From the sequence record NC_073077.1: a stretch of 42,624 bases of DNA; one strand, given 5' to 3'. Source of the DNA: Escherichia phage vB_Eco_Maverick. Every line of letters begins with the position of its first letter. Within the stretch, counting starts at the first letter, position 1. The notes under the pieces were generated by a model that was not told the origin of the DNA, did no database searches, and saw only the letters and a program-made list of their open reading frames with translations. Below, one piece after another: positions 2,844 through 10,272 of this stretch. The translations under genes were made by a program, and so were the position numbers.

Positions 2844-2850
2844 TAAAATG

Positions 2851-2878
2851 GCCCTCACTACAACGTGGGGGCTTTTTT
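2851..2878 (+). terminator. hairpin plus T6 directly after the tape-measure stop (possible attenuator)
   Basis: gccctcac-tacaac-gtgggggc stem-loop (7 of 8 pairs) followed by tttttt, ending 1 nt before ATG 2879. Confidence 0.35.
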
Positions 2879-3478
2879 ATGTCACAAGGTACAATCACAC
2901 TAACGAAAGGAAGTAAGACCGTCACGGGCGCGGGGACGGCGTTCCTGAGCGAGATTGGGAAGGTCCGCGTATTTGCCCGCATCGACGGCAACGACTACAC
3001 CGGCAAAATTGCAGCATTCAACTCTAACACCGTCATCACCCTGGCGGATAACTGGGCAGGTCCGACAAAAGCCGGTGTGGCTTATGAGCTAATCGAAGCG
3101 CACGACCCGCGGTCAAACGAATGGCCATATTACTGGCACATGCAATTGCAAGGCGGCGGGGACGTGCAGTTAGCTTTCCGGTCCGAGGAATTGCAATTTG
3201 GTAACGGTTACGGTCAGAACATCGCGGACGGCCCGAACGCCGAAACGAAACAGTTCCCCGTGCAATTCATCGGACTTACTACTGACAAGTGGTGCGACCC
3301 TAAACTGGTTTACAACTTTCTTCGCGGTCACTTCGTCAAGCCGTTTGTTGTCACCGCGCCGGATGGCGAAACAGGTTTATTCGTGGTCGAGCGTTCGAGC
3401 TTGTCGTACACTGACAACGGGCACTACACGGCAACTGTGTCCGCCACCCTTAAGACAGCTATTGGATTCGTAAGATGA
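2879..3478 (+). CDS. minor tail protein in the lambda gpM (distal tail) position
   Basis: ORF directly after the tape measure in the tail operon; ATG 2879 follows the hairpin/T-run, alternative overlapping ATG at 2840; N-terminal ~70 aa (GTITLTKGSKTVTGAGTAF) is paralogous to ORF 9784-10272. Confidence 0.55.
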   Translation: MSQGTITLTKGSKTVTGAGTAFLSEIGKVRVFARIDGNDYTGKIAAFNSNTVITLADNWAGPTKAGVAYELIEAHDPRSNEWPYYWHMQLQGGGDVQLAFRSEELQFGNGYGQNIADGPNAETKQFPVQFIGLTTDKWCDPKLVYNFLRGHFVKPFVVTAPDGETGLFVVERSSLSYTDNGHYTATVSATLKTAIGFVR

Positions 3479-4263
3479 ATAAACTCTATCGTGAAGCGAC
3501 GCGCTTTGACCCATCGGGCCGCGTTCGCCTGATTCACATTGACGCGCAGGACGTGGAACCCGGCGACGGCGCGATCGGCGCGGGGCACCACTATTTTCAC
3601 TACTGCTTTATTCCGCACACTGCCGAGGATATTGCTGCCGCTGGGGGTGACGAGGATAAGCTAAAACCTAAATCAATCTTCTTCGGCGGGCAGGAGTTCG
3701 AATTTTGGCCCTTTGATTTGTCCGGCCTCAACTTCTCCACGACAACGGCAGCGGAACCGCAGCTGACCATTGTCGATATCGGCGGCATAATCACCCGGCT
3801 GTCGCTGAATCACGACCAGCTACTGGGCGCGAAGGTTGAGATCATTGATACGTTCGCGAAGTTCCTGGACAACGGGACAGATCCAGACCCGACGCAGAAA
3901 CGAGTTCAGGAGTATTACATCGACTCGCAGGTCGGGCGCAATCCGGGCAAGCAAATCACCTTCGCACTATCCTCACCCGCGGATATGGAAGGGCAGGTCG
4001 TCCCGCGTCGCCAAATCATGAACATGTGCGAATGGGCGTTAAATGGGAAGTACGCCAGCGGGGACGGTTGCACGTGGAACCTTGCGAAGCCAGGCATCAA
4101 ATACTACGACGAGCGCGGAAACGAAGTCATCTCTATGAATATGGACCGCTGCGGCGGATGCTTGTCTGACTGCTACCTTCGTTTCGGTCAAGGTCTTGCG
4201 GATCCGAAAGCTGCGGTGCTGGACTTCGGCGGTTTTCCAGGGTCCAAATTGATTAAGGGGTAG
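3475..4263 (+). CDS. minor tail protein L-like
   Basis: 262 aa; C-terminal cysteine cluster (C-x..-CGGCLSDC) like the Fe-S region of lambda gpL; gene order M-L-K-I-J; start overlaps previous stop (ATGA). Confidence 0.7.
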   Translation: MNKLYREATRFDPSGRVRLIHIDAQDVEPGDGAIGAGHHYFHYCFIPHTAEDIAAAGGDEDKLKPKSIFFGGQEFEFWPFDLSGLNFSTTTAAEPQLTIVDIGGIITRLSLNHDQLLGAKVEIIDTFAKFLDNGTDPDPTQKRVQEYYIDSQVGRNPGKQITFALSSPADMEGQVVPRRQIMNMCEWALNGKYASGDGCTWNLAKPGIKYYDERGNEVISMNMDRCGGCLSDCYLRFGQGLADPKAAVLDFGGFPGSKLIKG

Positions 4264-5006: not shown

Positions 5007-5614
5007 CCACGTTTAAATTGTACGGCGTCTTAGGGCGTCGTTTTGGTAAAGTGCATAAGCTGGACTGCTTCACACCGGGAGAAGGCATCACCGGCCTGTG
5101 TGTGAAGTTGCCAGGGTTACAAGACTTTTTAATGTCGGCCCACCTGGACAATATGATGTTCAAGGTGCGCAAAGGCAACCACACGATGACCGGTTATGAT
5201 GAGCTTGGCGAGTTCCACGGCGACCGCGTCGTTACCATCGCGCCGGTTATGACGGGGGCAAAAAGCGGACTGGGCCAATTGCTGGCGGGTGTCGCGATTG
5301 TAGTGGCGTCGTTCTATACTGGCGGACTTGCTACTGCCGCTTTCGGGGCTTCGGCTGCAACCGCTGCCGCTATCGGTACGGCTACATTTTCGTTTGGCAT
5401 GTCGCTTGCGCTGGGCGGTGCTATGCAATTGCTGTCGCCGCAGCCGAAAGGATTGCAGACCCGGCAGGACGTGGATAACAAAGCGTCGTACGCGTTCGGC
5501 GGGCCAGTGAATACAACAGCGCAAGGCACGGCGCTTGGTGTATTATGGGGCGAGCGTGAGATCGGCGGCGCTATTATTTCAGCCGGAATCGTAACCGAGG
5601 ACTTGAACGAATGA
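4997..5614 (+). CDS. tail assembly protein I-like
   Basis: 205 aa; C-terminal half is Gly/Ala-rich and hydrophobic (GLATAAFGASAATAAAIGTATFSFG); located between the K-like and J-like genes. Confidence 0.6.
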   Translation: MAMTTFKLYGVLGRRFGKVHKLDCFTPGEGITGLCVKLPGLQDFLMSAHLDNMMFKVRKGNHTMTGYDELGEFHGDRVVTIAPVMTGAKSGLGQLLAGVAIVVASFYTGGLATAAFGASAATAAAIGTATFSFGMSLALGGAMQLLSPQPKGLQTRQDVDNKASYAFGGPVNTTAQGTALGVLWGEREIGGAIISAGIVTEDLNE

Positions 5615-8600
5615 CGATTATCTACGACGTCACTGGGCATAAAGGCGGCGGCGGCAAACAGCACACCCCGCAGGAAACGCCGGATAGCCTGCATTCCCTG
5701 GCTAAAATTCGCATCTTGCTTGCGCTAGGGGAAGGGGAATTCGAAAGTATTACCAGCGACAGCGAATTACGGCAGCGTGTATATCTGGACGGCACGCCGA
5801 TCCAGAACGCCGACCTGTCGGAAAACTTCCCCGGCGCGCGCGTGGAGTTCCGCCCAGGCACACAGCACCAGGACGTGATCCACGGATTTTCAGCGGTGGA
5901 AAGTGAGCAATCCGTAGGCGTAAAACTGGAAAACGGCACGCCGTGGGTGCGCCAGATTAACGACACCAGTCTTGACGCCGTGCGCATTCGAATCGGCATT
6001 CCGGCCCTGTACACCAACGAAGACAACGGCGACCTGGTGGGCGGGCGCATCGACTATAAGATAGTTGTGTATACGGATAACGCCGACCCGCGTGAGTTCA
6101 GATTCGCCGCCGTTGGTAAAACAATGTCGCTATATGAGCGCGACCACCGCATCGAATTACCTCCGAACGTTAACACCGGCTGGCGCGTGGAGGTGCACCG
6201 CATAACGGCAGACTCCACATCGGCGAAAGTGGTTAATGATATCCGGGTGCAGTCCATCACTGAGATTATTGACGCCCGCCTGCGTTACCCGCTAACCGCG
6301 CTGTTGTTTGTGGAGTTCGACGCCAAAGCGTTCCAGAACATCCCGCGCGTGTCCATTAAGTGCAAAGGTCGCAAAGTTCTAATACCGAACAACTACGACC
6401 CGATCAATCATACCTATTCCGGGGACTGGGACGGCACGTTTAAACGCGCATGGACGGATAACCCTGCGTGGCACTGGTACGATATTTGTATTACTGAGCG
6501 CTTCGGCCTCGGTCGGCGTATCAAACCGCAAATGCTAAACCGATACGCGCTCTACCAGATTGCGCAGCGCTGCGATCAGTTGGTCAGCGACGGCAACGGT
6601 GGTCGAGAAATCCGCTTTAAGAATGATATGTACATTCAGTCACAGACGGATGCCTGGACCGTGCTTAAGGATTTAGCCGCTATCTTTGCCGGTATGACCT
6701 GGTGGGGAAATCAGATGTTGAATATCGTCAGTGACCAGCCGGTCGCAGCGGTATCGCACACCATCACCAACGCCTCGGTCATTGATGGTCGATTCGACTA
6801 CGCGTCCGGCAGCCAGAAAACTCGATATTCCACATTCGCGGTAGCATACGGCAACCCGAAGAACCACTATGAAGATGCCATTGCTACGGGGCAGCGTGTC
6901 GAACTGGTACGCCGCCATAAGATTAACCGTCTGGACATCACGGCGATCGGCTGTACGCGTGAATCTGAAGCGCAACGCCGCGGGCACTGGGCGCTAATCT
7001 CCAACCAGCTTGACCAGCAAGTTAGCTTTAAGGTTGGCATGGAGGGACTTTTCTTTATTCCGGGTAGCGTAGTCGCGATCGCGGATACAAACATTTCTGG
7101 CGGCTTCGAGACTCGCGGCGGTCGCCTGTTGTCGGATCCTGGCACGCGGACGGTGCTGAACACAGACAGCGAAATCACGTTCCGCCCTGGCGATAAATTC
7201 CTGGTACGCACCGATAGCGGTAATGTGGAGACTCGCGAGATCGCCAGCGTCAACGGCAACAAGGTTACGCTAAAAACCGCACTGGATGCCGACCCGATTC
7301 CGGACCAGCCGTTTTGCGTCGATGGCAACGATATCCAGTTGCAGAAGTTCCGCATCACCGACCTGGAATATGACGACTCTACCAGCACTTTTTCAGTGCG
7401 CGGGATTGAGTACAACGATAGTAAATATGATGCCGTTGATAATGGCGCTCGCCTTGATCCGGGCATCTTTACTCAAGTGCCTGACGGCGTAATGAAGGGG
7501 CCGGAGTCCGTGACCATCACCCCGTCGCAGATTTCATCGCAAGGCCAGCTAATCACCAACGTGGATATTGTATTCCCTCCGGTGAAGGACGCCGTGGTGT
7601 ATGAAATCCAGTGGCGGCGTACCAGCTTGCAGAATATGGAAATCCAGTGGGGTAACGACTGGGTTAACATCCCACGTACGGCGTCGAACGGCGCGCACAT
7701 CCCTAACGTGTTCTCAGGTAACTACCAAGCACGCGTCCGCGCAATCGGTATGGGCGAGATTTCATCCCCGTGGGTGTCGTCTGCCATCACGCCGATAGAA
7801 GGTCGTCTCGGCGGGCTTAACGCGCCTATCATCACCAACGCGATTTCTGGCCTCCACCAAATTTTGTGGAAGTGGAACCACAACAACGCCGCGACGGATA
7901 TTTCGTACACCGAGCTTGAAGTGCGCAAGACCGGTGAAACGGAATGGAAATTTCTTACCAACGTCCCATACCCAGGGTCAGATTATGCGCAAACGTCTCT
8001 GGAGTTCGGGATCTATCAGCAGTTGCGCGCCCGTGTAGCGGATAAAATCGGCAACCTATCGGACTGGTCCGCACCGTTTGAAGGCCAGGTGAGTGACAAA
8101 GTTGACGAGTACATGAAGGGGCTTGATGACGAGTTCTTGACTTCCGAGGATGGTAAACACTTCCAGGAAGCTATTAACACGATCCCGCAAGGCATTTATG
8201 AGTCAATGCTCACCGACGCCCAGCAGCTATTCAACGCCCGCGCCGAGTACAAAGGGATTTATGCGGAAATCAAGGTGGCGTATAACGTGGCGGCAGACGC
8301 CAACAAGGCGGTAGCACAACTGGAGACGTTGATCGGCACGCGACTTGAAGACGCCGAAGCGGCGATCCACACGTTGCAGACGGCGCAGAGTACGCAAGAG
8401 CAGGCCTTCGCCCAGTATCAGCAGACTGTTGCCGCTAAGTTTTCGGAACAGGAAGCCGCCATACAGCAGGTACAAACGGCAACTGCAGACGTCGCGGGCG
8501 CACTGGCGGAGTATAAGACCCAGGTCGCGGCACAGTTCGGTCAGCAGTCCGCCGCTATCGAGCAGAAGATGACGTCTTCGTTTAACCACTCCGGTGGTAG

Positions 8601-9429
8601 CGCCACGTACAGCCTTAAGGCGGGCGTGACGTACAACGGGACTTACTACGATGCAGGTATGCAGCTTTCCGTTGTGACGTCGGGCAGCGCTGTTAAATCA
8701 CGCATCGCGTTCAAGGCGGACCAGTTCTACATCATGCACCCGTCTAATGGGTCGCTTTCGTCTGCGTTTATCGTGGATGGCGGGCAGGTGTATATCAACA
8801 CGGCGCGCATTAAAGACGCATCTATCAACTTTGCGCAGATCACGGACACGCTGCAATCCAACAACTGGATTGCAGGGAGCAGGGGTTGGCGTATCGCGAA
8901 AGATGGAGGCGCGGAGTTTAACGCAGTAACGGTACGCGGCAACGTGTATGCGAATGATGGCGTGTTTAATGGTACGGTTTATGCAAGGGATGGGGTATTT
9001 ACCGGAACGGTCGAAGCTACCAGCTTTGTCGGTGACGTTGCAAATATGTGTGTTATTGGTGCGAAAGCAATACCTAACACAGGCAGGAATGGATCGAGGT
9101 CGTGGTCAGTGACTTTCAACGACTCGTCCAGGTCATCAAAACTAAAAGACTTTGTGTTGTTGTTAAGTTACTCACTGGTTGGGTACACCGCAAGCCAGTC
9201 AAGCCGCATTGCTGTTACCGCCAATATTGGTGGGAAAGTAGTCTCAAGGACTATTGAGCGGGCGGCAAGCGGAAACGCAATCCATACGATGATTCCTTTA
9301 GCTGCGAAAGGTGTAACGGCGGGAAGTGTAACAATTACAGTGACGGAAGAGTATACAAACGTCTACGGCAGCACATTGCATCCATCGGTAATATTAATGA
9401 CTCGCGGCACTGGTAGCTGGTCGCAATAA
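5611..9429 (+). CDS. host specificity protein J-like (central tail fibre / tail tip)
   Basis: 1272-aa ORF as last large gene of the tail operon; coiled-coil stretch and beta-rich C-terminal third typical of J-type receptor-binding proteins; translationally coupled to the I-like gene. Confidence 0.85.
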   Translation: MTIIYDVTGHKGGGGKQHTPQETPDSLHSLAKIRILLALGEGEFESITSDSELRQRVYLDGTPIQNADLSENFPGARVEFRPGTQHQDVIHGFSAVESEQSVGVKLENGTPWVRQINDTSLDAVRIRIGIPALYTNEDNGDLVGGRIDYKIVVYTDNADPREFRFAAVGKTMSLYERDHRIELPPNVNTGWRVEVHRITADSTSAKVVNDIRVQSITEIIDARLRYPLTALLFVEFDAKAFQNIPRVSIKCKGRKVLIPNNYDPINHTYSGDWDGTFKRAWTDNPAWHWYDICITERFGLGRRIKPQMLNRYALYQIAQRCDQLVSDGNGGREIRFKNDMYIQSQTDAWTVLKDLAAIFAGMTWWGNQMLNIVSDQPVAAVSHTITNASVIDGRFDYASGSQKTRYSTFAVAYGNPKNHYEDAIATGQRVELVRRHKINRLDITAIGCTRESEAQRRGHWALISNQLDQQVSFKVGMEGLFFIPGSVVAIADTNISGGFETRGGRLLSDPGTRTVLNTDSEITFRPGDKFLVRTDSGNVETREIASVNGNKVTLKTALDADPIPDQPFCVDGNDIQLQKFRITDLEYDDSTSTFSVRGIEYNDSKYDAVDNGARLDPGIFTQVPDGVMKGPESVTITPSQISSQGQLITNVDIVFPPVKDAVVYEIQWRRTSLQNMEIQWGNDWVNIPRTASNGAHIPNVFSGNYQARVRAIGMGEISSPWVSSAITPIEGRLGGLNAPIITNAISGLHQILWKWNHNNAATDISYTELEVRKTGETEWKFLTNVPYPGSDYAQTSLEFGIYQQLRARVADKIGNLSDWSAPFEGQVSDKVDEYMKGLDDEFLTSEDGKHFQEAINTIPQGIYESMLTDAQQLFNARAEYKGIYAEIKVAYNVAADANKAVAQLETLIGTRLEDAEAAIHTLQTAQSTQEQAFAQYQQTVAAKFSEQEAAIQQVQTATADVAGALAEYKTQVAAQFGQQSAAIEQKMTSSFNHSGGSATYSLKAGVTYNGTYYDAGMQLSVVTSGSAVKSRIAFKADQFYIMHPSNGSLSSAFIVDGGQVYINTARIKDASINFAQITDTLQSNNWIAGSRGWRIAKDGGAEFNAVTVRGNVYANDGVFNGTVYARDGVFTGTVEATSFVGDVANMCVIGAKAIPNTGRNGSRSWSVTFNDSSRSSKLKDFVLLLSYSLVGYTASQSSRIAVTANIGGKVVSRTIERAASGNAIHTMIPLAAKGVTAGSVTITVTEEYTNVYGSTLHPSVILMTRGTGSWSQ

Positions 9430-9435
9430 GCAAAT

Positions 9436-9462
9436 AGCCCCTCGCTGGAGGGGCTATCTTTT
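9436..9462 (+). terminator. rho-independent terminator after the J-like gene
   Basis: agcccctc-gctg-gaggggct perfect 8-bp stem followed by atctttt. Confidence 0.75.
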
Positions 9463-9703
9463 AATAATCAATGACGCAGTTTGATGGGGAGCCAATCCTG
9501 CGGTGTTCGTGGCTAATCTCCTGACACCACTGACCGGTATAGGGTAGCTTTTCGGTATCGTAAACCAAAGACCCGTCTTCATGTCGCTCAATAGGCTTAG
9601 GTATTACGCCGGAATTCGGAACGCCGGTGTCTAAGCCGTTGCCACATGCTGCCATTAGAAGGCACGCCGCTGGTATTATCAGATTTTTGATTAAAGTTTT
9701 CAT
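9461..9703 (-). CDS. small lipoprotein, Cor/Llp-like superinfection-exclusion candidate
   Basis: 80-aa product MKTLIKNLIIPAACLLMAACGNG with signal peptide and lipobox LMAAC; GGAG Shine-Dalgarno 8 nt upstream of the ATG at 9703; sits head-to-head next to the receptor-binding J gene. Confidence 0.6.
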   Translation of the reverse strand: MKTLIKNLIIPAACLLMAACGNGLDTGVPNSGVIPKPIERHEDGSLVYDTEKLPYTGQWCQEISHEHRRIGSPSNCVIDY

Positions 9704-9783: not shown

Positions 9784-10272
9784 ATGGCAGCGGGCACACT
9801 ATCCGTAACGAATAACAGCAAGGCGGTTGTCGGAGTAGGCACAACGTTTACCGCGTTTAAAGCTGGCGACTTCTTAACGCTGGTGGTAGGGCAAGTCCCC
9901 TACACCGTGGCAATCGCGTCCATTGAAAGCGCAACCGAGCTTACGCTGGTGCTGCCGTTCGACGGCCCAACGGCAACCGGCCTTGCGTGGGATGGCGTTA
10001 AGCGCGATACCATGTCGCTGGCAACGATGGGCGTTACCGTACAGGCCCAAAAAGCATTGCGCTTGATGATTGCAGATGAAAACAACTGGCGTGCAATCTT
10101 CGGCGACGCTGAAGAAATCACAGTGACGTTACCTACCGGGCAAGTTATGCAGGGTATGTCGTGGGGCTACCTGTCGCAGCTAATGAAGCAGATTCGCCCC
10201 GTTGAAATCGCGGAATTAAAAGCTGCCGTTGAGGAGTTGAAAGCCGCGGTCGCGGCACTGACAAAAGCATAA
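9784..10272 (+). CDS. hypothetical tail-associated protein (N-terminal domain paralogous to 2879-3478)
   Basis: GAGGA Shine-Dalgarno before ATG 9784; N-terminus GTLSVTNNSKAVVGVGTTF resembles 2879 ORF; C-terminal coiled-coil (EIAELKAAVEELKAAVAAL); followed by terminator. Confidence 0.5.
   Translation: MAAGTLSVTNNSKAVVGVGTTFTAFKAGDFLTLVVGQVPYTVAIASIESATELTLVLPFDGPTATGLAWDGVKRDTMSLATMGVTVQAQKALRLMIADENNWRAIFGDAEEITVTLPTGQVMQGMSWGYLSQLMKQIRPVEIAELKAAVEELKAAVAALTKA

What the first reader, a model, noticed from the sequence alone, without database searches (positions are those of the whole stretch)
2879..3100. Paralogous N-terminal domain shared by two tail-region proteins
The proteins starting at 2879 (after the tape measure) and at 9784 (after J and the lipoprotein gene) begin with clearly related sequences: MSQGTITLTKGSKTVTGAGTAF... 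versus MAAGTLSVTNNSKAVVGVGTTF..., with further shared positions over about 70 residues. A common anchoring domain with different C-terminal parts suggests two alternative tail-tip or fibre-associated components.
Basis: seen in the sequence. Interest (0 to 1): 0.45.

Follow-up and report, generated by a model that had tools for sequence, protein, structure and literature searches.

The report
Fibre-anchor domain fused to distal tail protein
The ring protein at the end of this coliphage's tail tube and a deletion-shortened side-fibre gene start with the same small beta-barrel domain, a module that many phage fibres use to attach to the tail; the similarity is real but mostly explained by known tail parts.

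Summary
The proteins starting at 2879 and 9784 share a 70-residue N-terminal domain: 34% identity, BLASTP E=6e-8, Smith-Waterman z=14, 0 of 5000 shuffles as good.

The window is a Dhillonvirus, 100% identical to Escherichia phage vB_Eco_CS16 over the 8.5 kb compared; a look-up also names vB_Eco_Maverick.

Protein A (199 aa) is the distal tail protein (lambda gpM family). It is 96% identical to solved chain 23gd_B. The extra beta-barrel is fused in front of its tube-fold core, an architecture I found only in Dhillonviruses.

Protein B (162 aa) is the lateral tail fibre, cut down by an in-frame deletion of about 1.4 kb. It keeps only the anchor barrel, the proximal conserved segment and the last 22 codons.

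The barrel belongs to a very large family (4054 cluster representatives). This family includes the N-terminal domain by which F-type pyocin side fibres clamp the coiled-coil shaft of the central fibre.

The two proteins are not alternatives. Both genes occur in all 17 comparison loci that hold both.

What the Dit copy does is unproven. It is under purifying selection (dN/dS about 0.10). I favour a six-copy outer collar. A mixed collar that docks the fibre is not excluded.

Verdict: a new variant of known kinds, of moderate interest.

The parts
2879..3103 (+). N-terminal beta-barrel domain (aa 1-75) of the distal tail protein, which is the shared module
   Evidence: BLASTP to the fibre N-terminus, E=6e-8. 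Shuffle z=14. Fibre-profile hit to the 96%-identical chain 23gd_B, residues 1-74, E=5e-17. AF2 pLDDT 87-94 with six strands. 1.4 A rmsd to a predicted fibre N-domain.
3104..3478 (+). Linker plus the gpM-like tube-fold core of the distal tail protein (aa 76-199, with stop)
2850..2873 (+). Terminator-like hairpin followed by T6, between the tape-measure stop and the Dit start codon
   Evidence: The CS16 record annotates it as a terminator. It lies inside the 13 extra codons of the alternative upstream start at 2840, which argues for the 2879 start, the one used in PDB 23gd_B and the Bas18 annotation. The number of such sites is not above chance for the region.
9784..9999 (+). N-terminal beta-barrel anchor domain (aa 1-72) of the lateral tail fibre
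   Evidence: phrog_1980 tail fibre, E=2.6e-41. 93% identical to the N-terminus of Bas18 lateral tail fibre gp27. Hits 23gd_B residues 1-73 at E=1e-4.
10000..10203 (+). Conserved proximal segment of the fibre (aa 73-140), present in most family members and absent from the Dit
   Evidence: phmmer with aa 73-162 finds this segment in well over 100 of the fetched family members. Conserved columns include R93, N101, W102, T113, G124 and W127. dN/dS is 0.05 among Dhillonviruses.
10204..10272 (+). Remnant of the 3' end of the fibre gene (last 22 codons plus stop), with the deletion junction at microhomology GAAAT (10204-10208)
   Evidence: Gene nt 421-489 equal the last 69 nt of the BEK2-2, HK578-type and slur05 fibre genes. 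The 5' homology runs to nt 425-429. Sequence shown.
5611..9429 (+). J-like central fibre protein (1272 aa) with a helical shaft at about aa 860-980 (nt about 8190-8550), the inferred docking site of the fibre anchor
   Evidence: Pfam FNIII-A_GpJ, Phage-tail_3 and Phage_Tail_Tip. The closest solved relatives are 23gd_D and the F2-pyocin central fibre 25vf_A, E=2.4e-224. The helix-former-rich, Gly/Pro-poor stretch is shown. That the fibre docks here is an inference from F-pyocin structures, not shown for this phage.

Best explanation
A small six-stranded beta-barrel of about 72-75 residues normally sits at residue 1 of phage lateral fibres and tailspikes, where it serves as the attachment module. 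In this phage it occurs twice.

(1) In the lateral tail fibre gene (9784) it is the true anchor. F-type pyocin side fibres have a homologous N-domain, and two of the three barrels per trimer dock on the coiled-coil shaft of the J-like central fibre and stabilise it. By that homology, the fibre here most likely attaches to the helical shaft of J.

In this genome an in-frame deletion at a 5-nt microhomology has removed the shaft, the receptor-binding tip and the chaperone domain. What remains is a 162-aa 'headless' stub: barrel, proximal conserved segment and a 22-residue C-terminal heptad helix. I infer that the stub is kept because the anchor still clamps or stabilises the J shaft, whereas the O-antigen-binding distal part is dispensable on rough hosts.

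(2) In the distal tail protein (2879) an old, diverged copy of the same barrel is fused in front of the gpM-like core, so six copies sit on the outside of the Dit ring. They are not alternative components; both are present in all Dhillonviruses examined.

I commit to reading the Dit copy as a cis-encoded outer collar or decoration at the tube-tip junction. It would be analogous to the OB-fold decoration of T5 pb9 and to the collars of Ur-lambda and T5. It is functional, since it is under purifying selection, but it is not the primary attachment site of the fibre.

Shown: the homology, the identities of both proteins, the anatomy of the deletion, the restriction of the fusion to this lineage, and selective constraint. 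Inferred: docking on J, the clamp role of the stub, and the collar role of the Dit copy.
For: Identity of the window: 100% to vB_Eco_CS16, a Dhillonvirus.

Dit identity.

Fibre identity and deletion: residues 1-145 are 93% identical to Bas18 gp27 (606 aa), and the last 21 residues match its C-terminus.

Independent in-frame deletions that keep residues 1 to about 145 occur in Teewinot (246 aa) and in metagenomic P0012 (266 aa).

Family: 4054 cluster representatives, nearly all with the domain at residue 1 of proteins of 200-900 aa. Only the Dhillonvirus Dit carries a Dit core among the top 150. In N15 and Salmonella phage S107 the domain sits on the post-J fibre, while their 115-aa Dits lack it.

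Homology to the F2-pyocin side fibre: barrel residues 5-76, profile E=2.4e-7, and from the Dit alone E=1.4e-3.

F-pyocin structures: the N-domains dock on the central-fibre coiled coil (PMC13455828; bioRxiv 10.64898/2026.02.24.707460). [quoted passage not shown]

J here is closest to the F2-pyocin central fibre and has a helical shaft of about 120 residues.

The lateral fibre is facultative, needed only to cross O-antigen (PMC11990801, PMC8594841).

The Dit copy has dN/dS 0.10, against 0.03 for the Dit core. It has 34% variable sites against 13%. It lacks the proximal segment. It has Gly27 where the pyocin fibre has Arg30 (a shaft contact in the F7 pyocin structure) and the fibre here has Lys26 (alignments; residue roles from PMC12874032).

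The PDB entry for the Bas18 tail tip (23gd) contains Dit, hub and J chains. No chain in the PDB copy matches the 606-aa fibre along its length; its only hit in 23gd is the Dit barrel.
Against: No structure or experiment on this phage shows where the fibre anchor or the stub sits.

The proximal segment of enterobacterial fibres has no detectable sequence similarity to the pyocin 'stem', so transferring the docking mode from pyocins is an inference.

The existence of a Dit-fused paralogue of the fibre anchor is itself a hint that fibre and Dit may meet. Homotypic barrel-barrel contacts do exist in the pyocin pseudo-sixfold ring.

Three in-frame deletions are only weak evidence for selection on the stub (chance about 0.04, with search bias possible).

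The CS16 annotators called the stub a pseudogene. Neither its expression nor its presence in virions has been tested.
Confidence: 0.55

Rival explanations
1. Mixed collar. The six Dit-fused barrels are the docking platform for the lateral fibres. Fibre N-barrels (two per trimer, three fibres) slot between them through homotypic barrel-barrel contacts and form a 12-membered collar around the Dit ring. This would be a third way of building the collar seen in Ur-lambda (12 fibre N-domains) and T5 (12 copies of a separate protein, p132).
For: The two domains are paralogous.

In pyocins the barrels make lateral contacts in a pseudo-sixfold ring, and one barrel per trimer stays free (PMC13455828).

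In Ur-lambda, 12 fibre N-domains of six-strand beta structure followed by a helix encircle the gpV/gpM junction (PMC12617516).

Dit-N and a fibre with the barrel co-occur in every Dhillonvirus locus examined.

Dit-N is under purifying selection.
Against: Dit-N and fibre-N show no co-divergence across 17 loci (Spearman rho 0.02, p=0.83). One locus has a Dit only 83% identical yet a fibre anchor 94% identical.

Dit-N is the least conserved of the four segments.

Homologous fibres in N15, S107 and the T1-like phages work with plain Dits of 115-117 aa.

The solved Bas18 tip entry has no fibre chain.

In the homologous pyocins the anchor sits on the shaft, far from the Dit.
Confidence: 0.25
2. Adhesin decoration. 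The Dit barrel is an exposed, weakly binding carbohydrate or surface-adhesion module, like Ig-like or OB-fold decorations on other tails. It has no structural relation to the fibre; the similarity only reflects reuse of a common building block.
For: The family is versatile. Giant cellular proteins carry 4-13 tandem copies together with PKD domains.

Dit-N is the most variable segment, as expected for an exposed surface.

The pyocin barrel is reported to resemble the decorating OB domain of T5 Dit pb9 (PMC13455828).

Against: No ligand-binding motif or glycan-binding family was detected. A dN/dS of 0.10 is not diversifying selection. Nothing tested here distinguishes adhesion from a purely structural collar.
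Confidence: 0.15
3. Recent intragenomic duplication or gene conversion between the two genes, or plain chance similarity.
For: Both copies are in one genome, 7 kb apart, on the same strand.
Against: Chance is excluded (z=14; profile E=5e-17).

Recent duplication is excluded too. There is no DNA similarity and only 34% protein identity. Dit-N scores better against other fibre families (phrog_17834 at 5e-18, N15/HK225 fibres at 39-42%) than against its own phage's fibre family (phrog_1980 at 6e-14).
Confidence: 0.02

Closest known systems
F-type pyocin side fibre (PyoF13 / PA0643 / PA0646), N-terminal OB-like domain; PDB 25ve, 25vj
   Same: The barrel is homologous (profile E=2.4e-7, residues 5-76). 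It sits at the extreme N-terminus of a trimeric side fibre encoded downstream of a J-like central fibre. The J proteins are also close relatives (E=2.4e-224).
   Different: The pyocin Dit (113 aa) has no barrel. The segment after the barrel is not detectably similar. Docking on the shaft is shown for pyocins and only inferred here. The fibre in this window is a 162-aa deletion stub.
Lambda gpM / T1 gp37 distal tail protein (Pfam PF05939)
   Same: The C-terminal 115 residues share the fold and family. The gene order is the same: tape measure, then Dit, then gpL-like hub.
   Different: Lambda gpM (109 aa) and T1 gp37 (117 aa) consist of the tube-fold core only. Here a 75-residue barrel is fused to the N-terminus.
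T5 pb9, a Dit with an OB-fold decoration domain (PDB 4jmq)
Collars that carry side fibres: Ur-lambda Stf N-domains (12 copies) and T5 p132 (12 copies)
   Same: Small beta-rich domains form a ring around the Dit/tube junction and link the fibres to the tail (PMC12617516).
   Different: In those phages the ring domain belongs to the fibre itself or to a separate protein, and there are 12 copies. Here it is fused to the Dit in 6 copies. Whether it contacts the fibre is unknown.
Fibreless laboratory variants (lambda PaPa stf frameshift, laboratory T5 and T1)
   Same: The facultative lateral fibre has been lost while infectivity on rough hosts is kept (PMC12617516, PMC11945409, PMC11990801).
   Different: Here the loss is an in-frame internal deletion that preserves the anchor and a C-terminal helix. 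At least two other Dhillonviruses carry independent deletions of the same kind.

Membership tests
Distal tail protein, lambda gpM family (PF05939) | Sequence match to the family model above the curated threshold | tested here: met
   44.1 bits against a cut-off of 39, residues 86-187. 96% identical to PDB 23gd_B 'Distal tail protein gp20'.
Distal tail protein, lambda gpM family (PF05939) | Tail-tube fold of the core | tested here: met
Distal tail protein, lambda gpM family (PF05939) | Gene position between the tape measure and the gpL-like hub | tested here: met
   Tape measure 201-2843, Dit 2879-3478, Phage_tail_L 3475-4263.
Fibre N-terminal beta-barrel anchor (F-pyocin side-fibre type; no Pfam or NCBIfam model matched) | Significant sequence match of both N-termini to the family | tested here: met
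   A two-sequence profile finds 4054 representatives. A fibre profile hits Dit 23gd_B at 5e-17 and the pyocin fibre at 2.4e-7.
Fibre N-terminal beta-barrel anchor (F-pyocin side-fibre type; no Pfam or NCBIfam model matched) | Small six-stranded beta-barrel fold | tested here: met
   AF2 pLDDT 87-94 for residues 1-75. 1.4-3 A rmsd to the predicted N-domains of Dhillonvirus, T1-like and Rtp fibres. Resembles the N-terminal domains of tailspikes.
Fibre N-terminal beta-barrel anchor (F-pyocin side-fibre type; no Pfam or NCBIfam model matched) | Followed by the conserved proximal (stem) segment and a trimeric shaft | tested here: not met
   This applies to the Dit copy, where the barrel is followed directly by the gpM core. 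The fibre stub does meet it for the proximal segment, residues 73-140.
Fibre N-terminal beta-barrel anchor (F-pyocin side-fibre type; no Pfam or NCBIfam model matched) | Docks on the coiled-coil shaft of the central fibre | not testable with these tools
   This needs multimer modelling or cryo-EM. It is known for F2, F7 and PAO1 pyocins only (PMC13455828, PMC12874032, bioRxiv 10.64898/2026.02.24.707460).
Functional lateral tail fibre of small siphoviruses (T5 pb1-like tip with S74 intramolecular chaperone) | Coiled-coil shaft, receptor-binding tip and C-terminal Peptidase_S74 chaperone domain | tested here: not met
   The 162-aa product has no Pfam hit. Compared with Bas18 gp27 (606 aa) and BEK2-2 (645 aa), roughly residues 146-585 and 141-623 respectively are missing. 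It is annotated as a pseudogene in CS16.
Lambda Stf-type collar domain | N-terminal domain homologous to lambda Stf residues 1-94, forming a 12-mer round the Dit | tested here: inconclusive

The most novel reading that the evidence does not exclude
The Dit-fused barrels and the barrels of the lateral fibres co-assemble into a heteromeric 12-membered collar of 6 Dit barrels plus 6 fibre barrels. This would be a third, previously undescribed way of mounting side fibres on a siphovirus tail. The 'headless' stubs found in CS16/Maverick, Teewinot and a metagenomic relative would then be retained to complete this collar, or to clamp a metastable, fold-switching J shaft.
Probability: 0.25. Interest if true: 0.6.

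Novelty: new variant of a known kind. Interest (0 to 1): 0.38.

Why it matters
How lateral fibres are mounted on lambda-like tails is only now being worked out: Ur-lambda and T5 use collars round the Dit, and F-pyocins use the central-fibre shaft.

A Dit that carries its own copy of the fibre anchor is a natural experiment on that question. It either marks a new mounting mode or shows that the anchor barrel is a general-purpose decoration.

The recurrent in-frame 'headless' fibre stubs suggest that the anchor has a structural job of its own, possibly stabilising the J coiled coil, which in pyocins is a metastable fold-switch.

Practically, the barrel plus proximal segment defines the constant part to keep when swapping receptor-binding tips in Dhillonvirus and T1-like phages. 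The family (4054 cluster representatives) matched no Pfam or NCBIfam model in my searches.

Tried and rejected
1. A word-index homologue search with the 84-aa N-domain alone found nothing. With the full proteins it returned only close relatives. The exhaustive profile search was needed to see the family.

2. Single-sequence AF2 of the Dit gave an unusable model (pLDDT 41). It was repeated with a 43-row alignment.

3. Foldseek against the PDB library (entries up to April 2026) does not contain 23gd or 25ve, so there was no direct structural comparison with the solved Dit or the pyocin fibre.

4. I looked for a paper describing PDB 23gd, the Bas18 tail tip, and found none in the library. The Oekolampad PNAS paper covers only the receptor-binding protein with LptDE.

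5. I tested for co-evolution of Dit-N with fibre-N and found no signal.

6. I tested whether the fibre's proximal segment is homologous to the pyocin stem. It is not detectable by sequence.

7. Recent duplication or gene conversion is rejected.

8. Pfam and NCBIfam gave no name for the barrel.

9. The upstream start codons (2840 for the Dit, 9757 for the fibre) used in some annotations are rejected. More than 100 family members have the domain at residue 1. The PDB and Bas18 records start at MSQGT. A GAGGA Shine-Dalgarno sequence lies 7 nt before 9784.

Full report
**What the window is.** The 8.5 kb around the finding are 100% identical to Escherichia phage vB_Eco_CS16 (LR999870.1, genus Dhillonvirus). 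They are about 90-95% identical to some 150 other Dhillonvirus records. A protein look-up shows the same fibre gene product in vB_Eco_Maverick, on a contig of exactly the window's length. The region is a lambda-like tail module:
- tape measure, 201-2843
- the first protein of the finding, 2879-3478
- a gpL-like hub, 3475-4263
- a gpK-like JAB/NlpC protein
- a gpI-like protein
- a 1272-aa J-like central fibre, 5611-9429
- a small lipoprotein gene on the minus strand
- the second protein of the finding, 9784-10272

BLASTP aligns residues 1-70 of the two proteins without gaps at 34% identity, E=6e-8. The Smith-Waterman score of 96 compares with 27 +/- 5 for 5000 shuffles, none of which exceeded 56. 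Each N-terminus hits the other's PHROG family.

A profile built from 25 diverse fibre N-termini hits the solved Dit chain 23gd_B at residues 1-74 with E=5e-17. With a 43-row alignment, AlphaFold2 folds residues 1-75 of the first protein into a six-stranded small beta-barrel at pLDDT 87-94. The similarity stops at about residue 72-75.

**Protein A is the distal tail protein with an extra domain.**
- Residues 86-187 match Pfam Phage_min_tail above threshold.
- The whole protein is 96% identical to PDB chain 23gd_B, 'Distal tail protein gp20'.
- That entry also holds 'Hub protein gp21' and 'J-like tail tip protein gp24'. Those numbers coincide with the locus tags of phage Oekolampad/Bas18.

The nearest Dits lacking the N-domain are 122-125 aa and align only to the last 59% of the protein, at 55-65% identity. 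The Dits of T1, lambda, N15 and phage S107, and of the F2 pyocin, are 109-117 aa. Among the 150 best representatives of the barrel family, only the Dhillonvirus cluster contains a Dit core. Within the reach of these searches, the fusion is a hallmark of this genus.

**Protein B is a lateral tail fibre reduced to its anchor.** Residues 1-145 are 93% identical to the N-terminus of the 606-aa 'lateral tail fiber protein' gp27 of Bas18, and its last 21 residues match the last 21 of that protein.

At the DNA level, nt 1-425/429 of the 489-nt gene match the 5' ends of full-length fibre genes. Nt 420/421-489 match the last 69-70 nt of the BEK2-2, HK578-type and slur05 genes. The junction is therefore a short microhomology, GAAAT at window 10204-10208, and the deletion of about 1.4 kb is in frame.

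The shaft, the receptor-binding tip and the S74 intramolecular chaperone domain are all gone. The CS16 record calls the gene a pseudogene. In 16 other Dhillonvirus loci that hold both genes the fibre is 538-893 aa.

Two further short versions arose independently and are also in frame. Teewinot (246 aa) joins residue about 160 to the second half of the chaperone domain. A metagenomic protein (266 aa) joins residue about 149 to a complete chaperone domain. All three keep residues 1 to about 145.

**The family.** A profile of the two N-domains finds 4054 cluster representatives at E<=1e-3 in a library of 1.84 billion proteins. In nearly all of the best 150, the domain starts at residue 1 of a protein of 200-900 aa. 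Most also share the next 60-70 residues with protein B. No Pfam or NCBIfam model matches the barrel.

In phages N15 and S107 the domain heads the fibre gene that follows J. A few very large proteins, annotated as 'PKD repeat protein' or as a cyanobacterial 'baseplate assembly protein', carry 4-13 tandem copies. The barrel is therefore also used as a generic building block.

**Link to solved systems.** Both N-domains match the N-terminus of the F2-pyocin side fibre in PDB 25ve. The Dit alone gives E=1.4e-3 and the fibre profile gives 2.4e-7, over residues 5-76. Three recent cryo-EM studies show what this domain does in F-type pyocins:
- Three trimeric side fibres attach by their N-terminal domains to a kinked, acidic stretch of the coiled-coil shaft of the J-like central fibre.
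- In the F7 pyocin, an in-frame deletion of the side fibre gene gave no particles. The authors concluded that the central fibre cannot keep its coiled coil without the side fibres (PMC12874032).

The J protein of this window is, after Bas18's, most similar to the F2-pyocin central fibre (E=2.4e-224). It contains a helix-rich stretch of about 120 residues, poor in Gly and Pro, before its Phage_Tail_Tip domain.

In contrast, Ur-lambda mounts its fibres through a 12-membered collar of fibre N-domains around the gpV/gpM junction, and T5 uses 12 copies of a separate collar protein (PMC12617516).

**What the Dit copy is likely to do.** Among 17 Dhillonvirus loci:

| Segment | Variable sites | dN/dS |
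|---|---|---|
| Dit barrel | 34% | 0.10 |
| Dit core | 13% | 0.03 |
| Fibre barrel | 24% | 0.06 |
| Fibre proximal segment | 14% | 0.05 |

The Dit barrel is the most variable segment, but it is still clearly constrained.

Pairwise divergence of the Dit barrel does not track that of the fibre barrel (rho 0.02, p=0.83). One locus has a Dit only 83% identical but a fibre anchor 94% identical.

The Dit copy lacks the proximal segment. It has Gly at the position where the F2-pyocin fibre has Arg30 and the fibre here has Lys26 (alignments). Arg30 is one of the residues that contact the shaft in the F7 pyocin structure (PMC12874032).

It is more similar to other fibre families (phrog_17834, N15/HK225 fibres) than to its own phage's fibre, and the two coding segments share no DNA similarity. 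It is therefore an old graft, not a recent duplication.

The Bas18 tip entry has no fibre chain, although that phage encodes a full-length fibre. This is only weak evidence, because flexible or separately refined parts are often not deposited.

**Conclusion on mechanism.** The best-supported reading has three parts.
- The fibre anchor docks on the J shaft, as in the pyocins.
- The stub in this genome survives because the anchor still clamps that shaft, while the O-antigen-binding distal part is dispensable on rough hosts (PMC11990801, PMC8594841).
- The Dit-fused barrel forms a six-copy outer collar or decoration at the tube-tip junction. This is functionally comparable to the OB decoration of T5 pb9, which PMC13455828 reports as structurally similar to the pyocin barrel.

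A mixed collar, in which fibre barrels slot between the Dit barrels, cannot be excluded. It is the more interesting alternative, and I give it about one chance in four. Which is right needs the 23gd coordinates, multimer modelling or cryo-EM of fibre-bearing virions.

**Novelty and score.** Dits with extra domains, fibre anchor barrels and fibreless laboratory phages are all known. The Dhillonvirus Dit has even been solved, though I found no paper on it.

What I did not find described in the searched literature:
- the paralogy between the Dit N-domain and the fibre anchor
- its restriction to this genus
- the recurrent in-frame 'headless' fibre stubs

This is a new variant of known kinds, of moderate interest.

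Noticed in passing
window 9784-10272; L006:2802-3542 (Teewinot); protein P0012: There are three independent in-frame internal deletions of the lateral fibre gene in Dhillonviruses, giving products of 162, 246 and 266 aa. All keep residues 1 to about 145 plus some C-terminal helix or chaperone domain. This suggests the anchor module is retained for a structural reason.
   Followed up: partly
proteins P0015, P0016, P0017, P0027, P0037: Very large proteins (1246-2894 aa) carry 10-13 tandem copies of the same barrel, and those scanned against Pfam (P0015, P0016) also have PKD domains. One is annotated as a cyanobacterial 'baseplate assembly protein', and some lie on contigs of 89-333 kb. The copies give weak sub-threshold matches to lambda gpFII and SPP1 gp16-type head-tail adaptor models.
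   Followed up: partly
window 2850-2878: A terminator-like hairpin (9 pairs) plus T6 sits between the tape-measure stop and the Dit ATG. It could attenuate transcription into the tail-tip genes. It lies within the 13 extra codons of the alternative start at 2840 used in the CS16 and McMelon annotations (212 aa).
   Followed up: partly
window 8971-9429 (J residues about 1121-1272) and 9461-9655 (-): The J protein is 1272 aa against 1148 aa in Bas18, and similarity to Bas18 J ends at residue about 1120, so the C-terminal part is a different receptor-binding module. Here only one small lipobox protein (MKTLIKNLIIPAACLLMAACG..., possibly Cor-like) lies between J and the fibre gene. Bas18 and BEK2-2 have two or three reverse-strand genes there.
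   Followed up: no
window 8190-8550 (J residues about 860-980): This long helix-rich stretch of J precedes the Phage_Tail_Tip domain. In the F7 pyocin the equivalent coiled coil switches to a beta-prism on firing (PMC12874032). I did not check for the SxSxxMxxLxS motif.
   Followed up: no
BFVD entry A0A679F2D2 (Escherichia phage vB_EcoS-DELF2): An 82-aa 'putative minor tail protein' appears to consist of the barrel alone (TM 0.79 normalised to the target, 26% identity). It may be a stand-alone copy or a truncated gene.
   Followed up: no
protein P0019 (84 aa): Its C-terminal 'LSLIHI' is the translation of the Nextera adaptor sequence (my own knowledge). This database 'protein' is therefore a read-end artefact, not a real truncated fibre.
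   Followed up: yes
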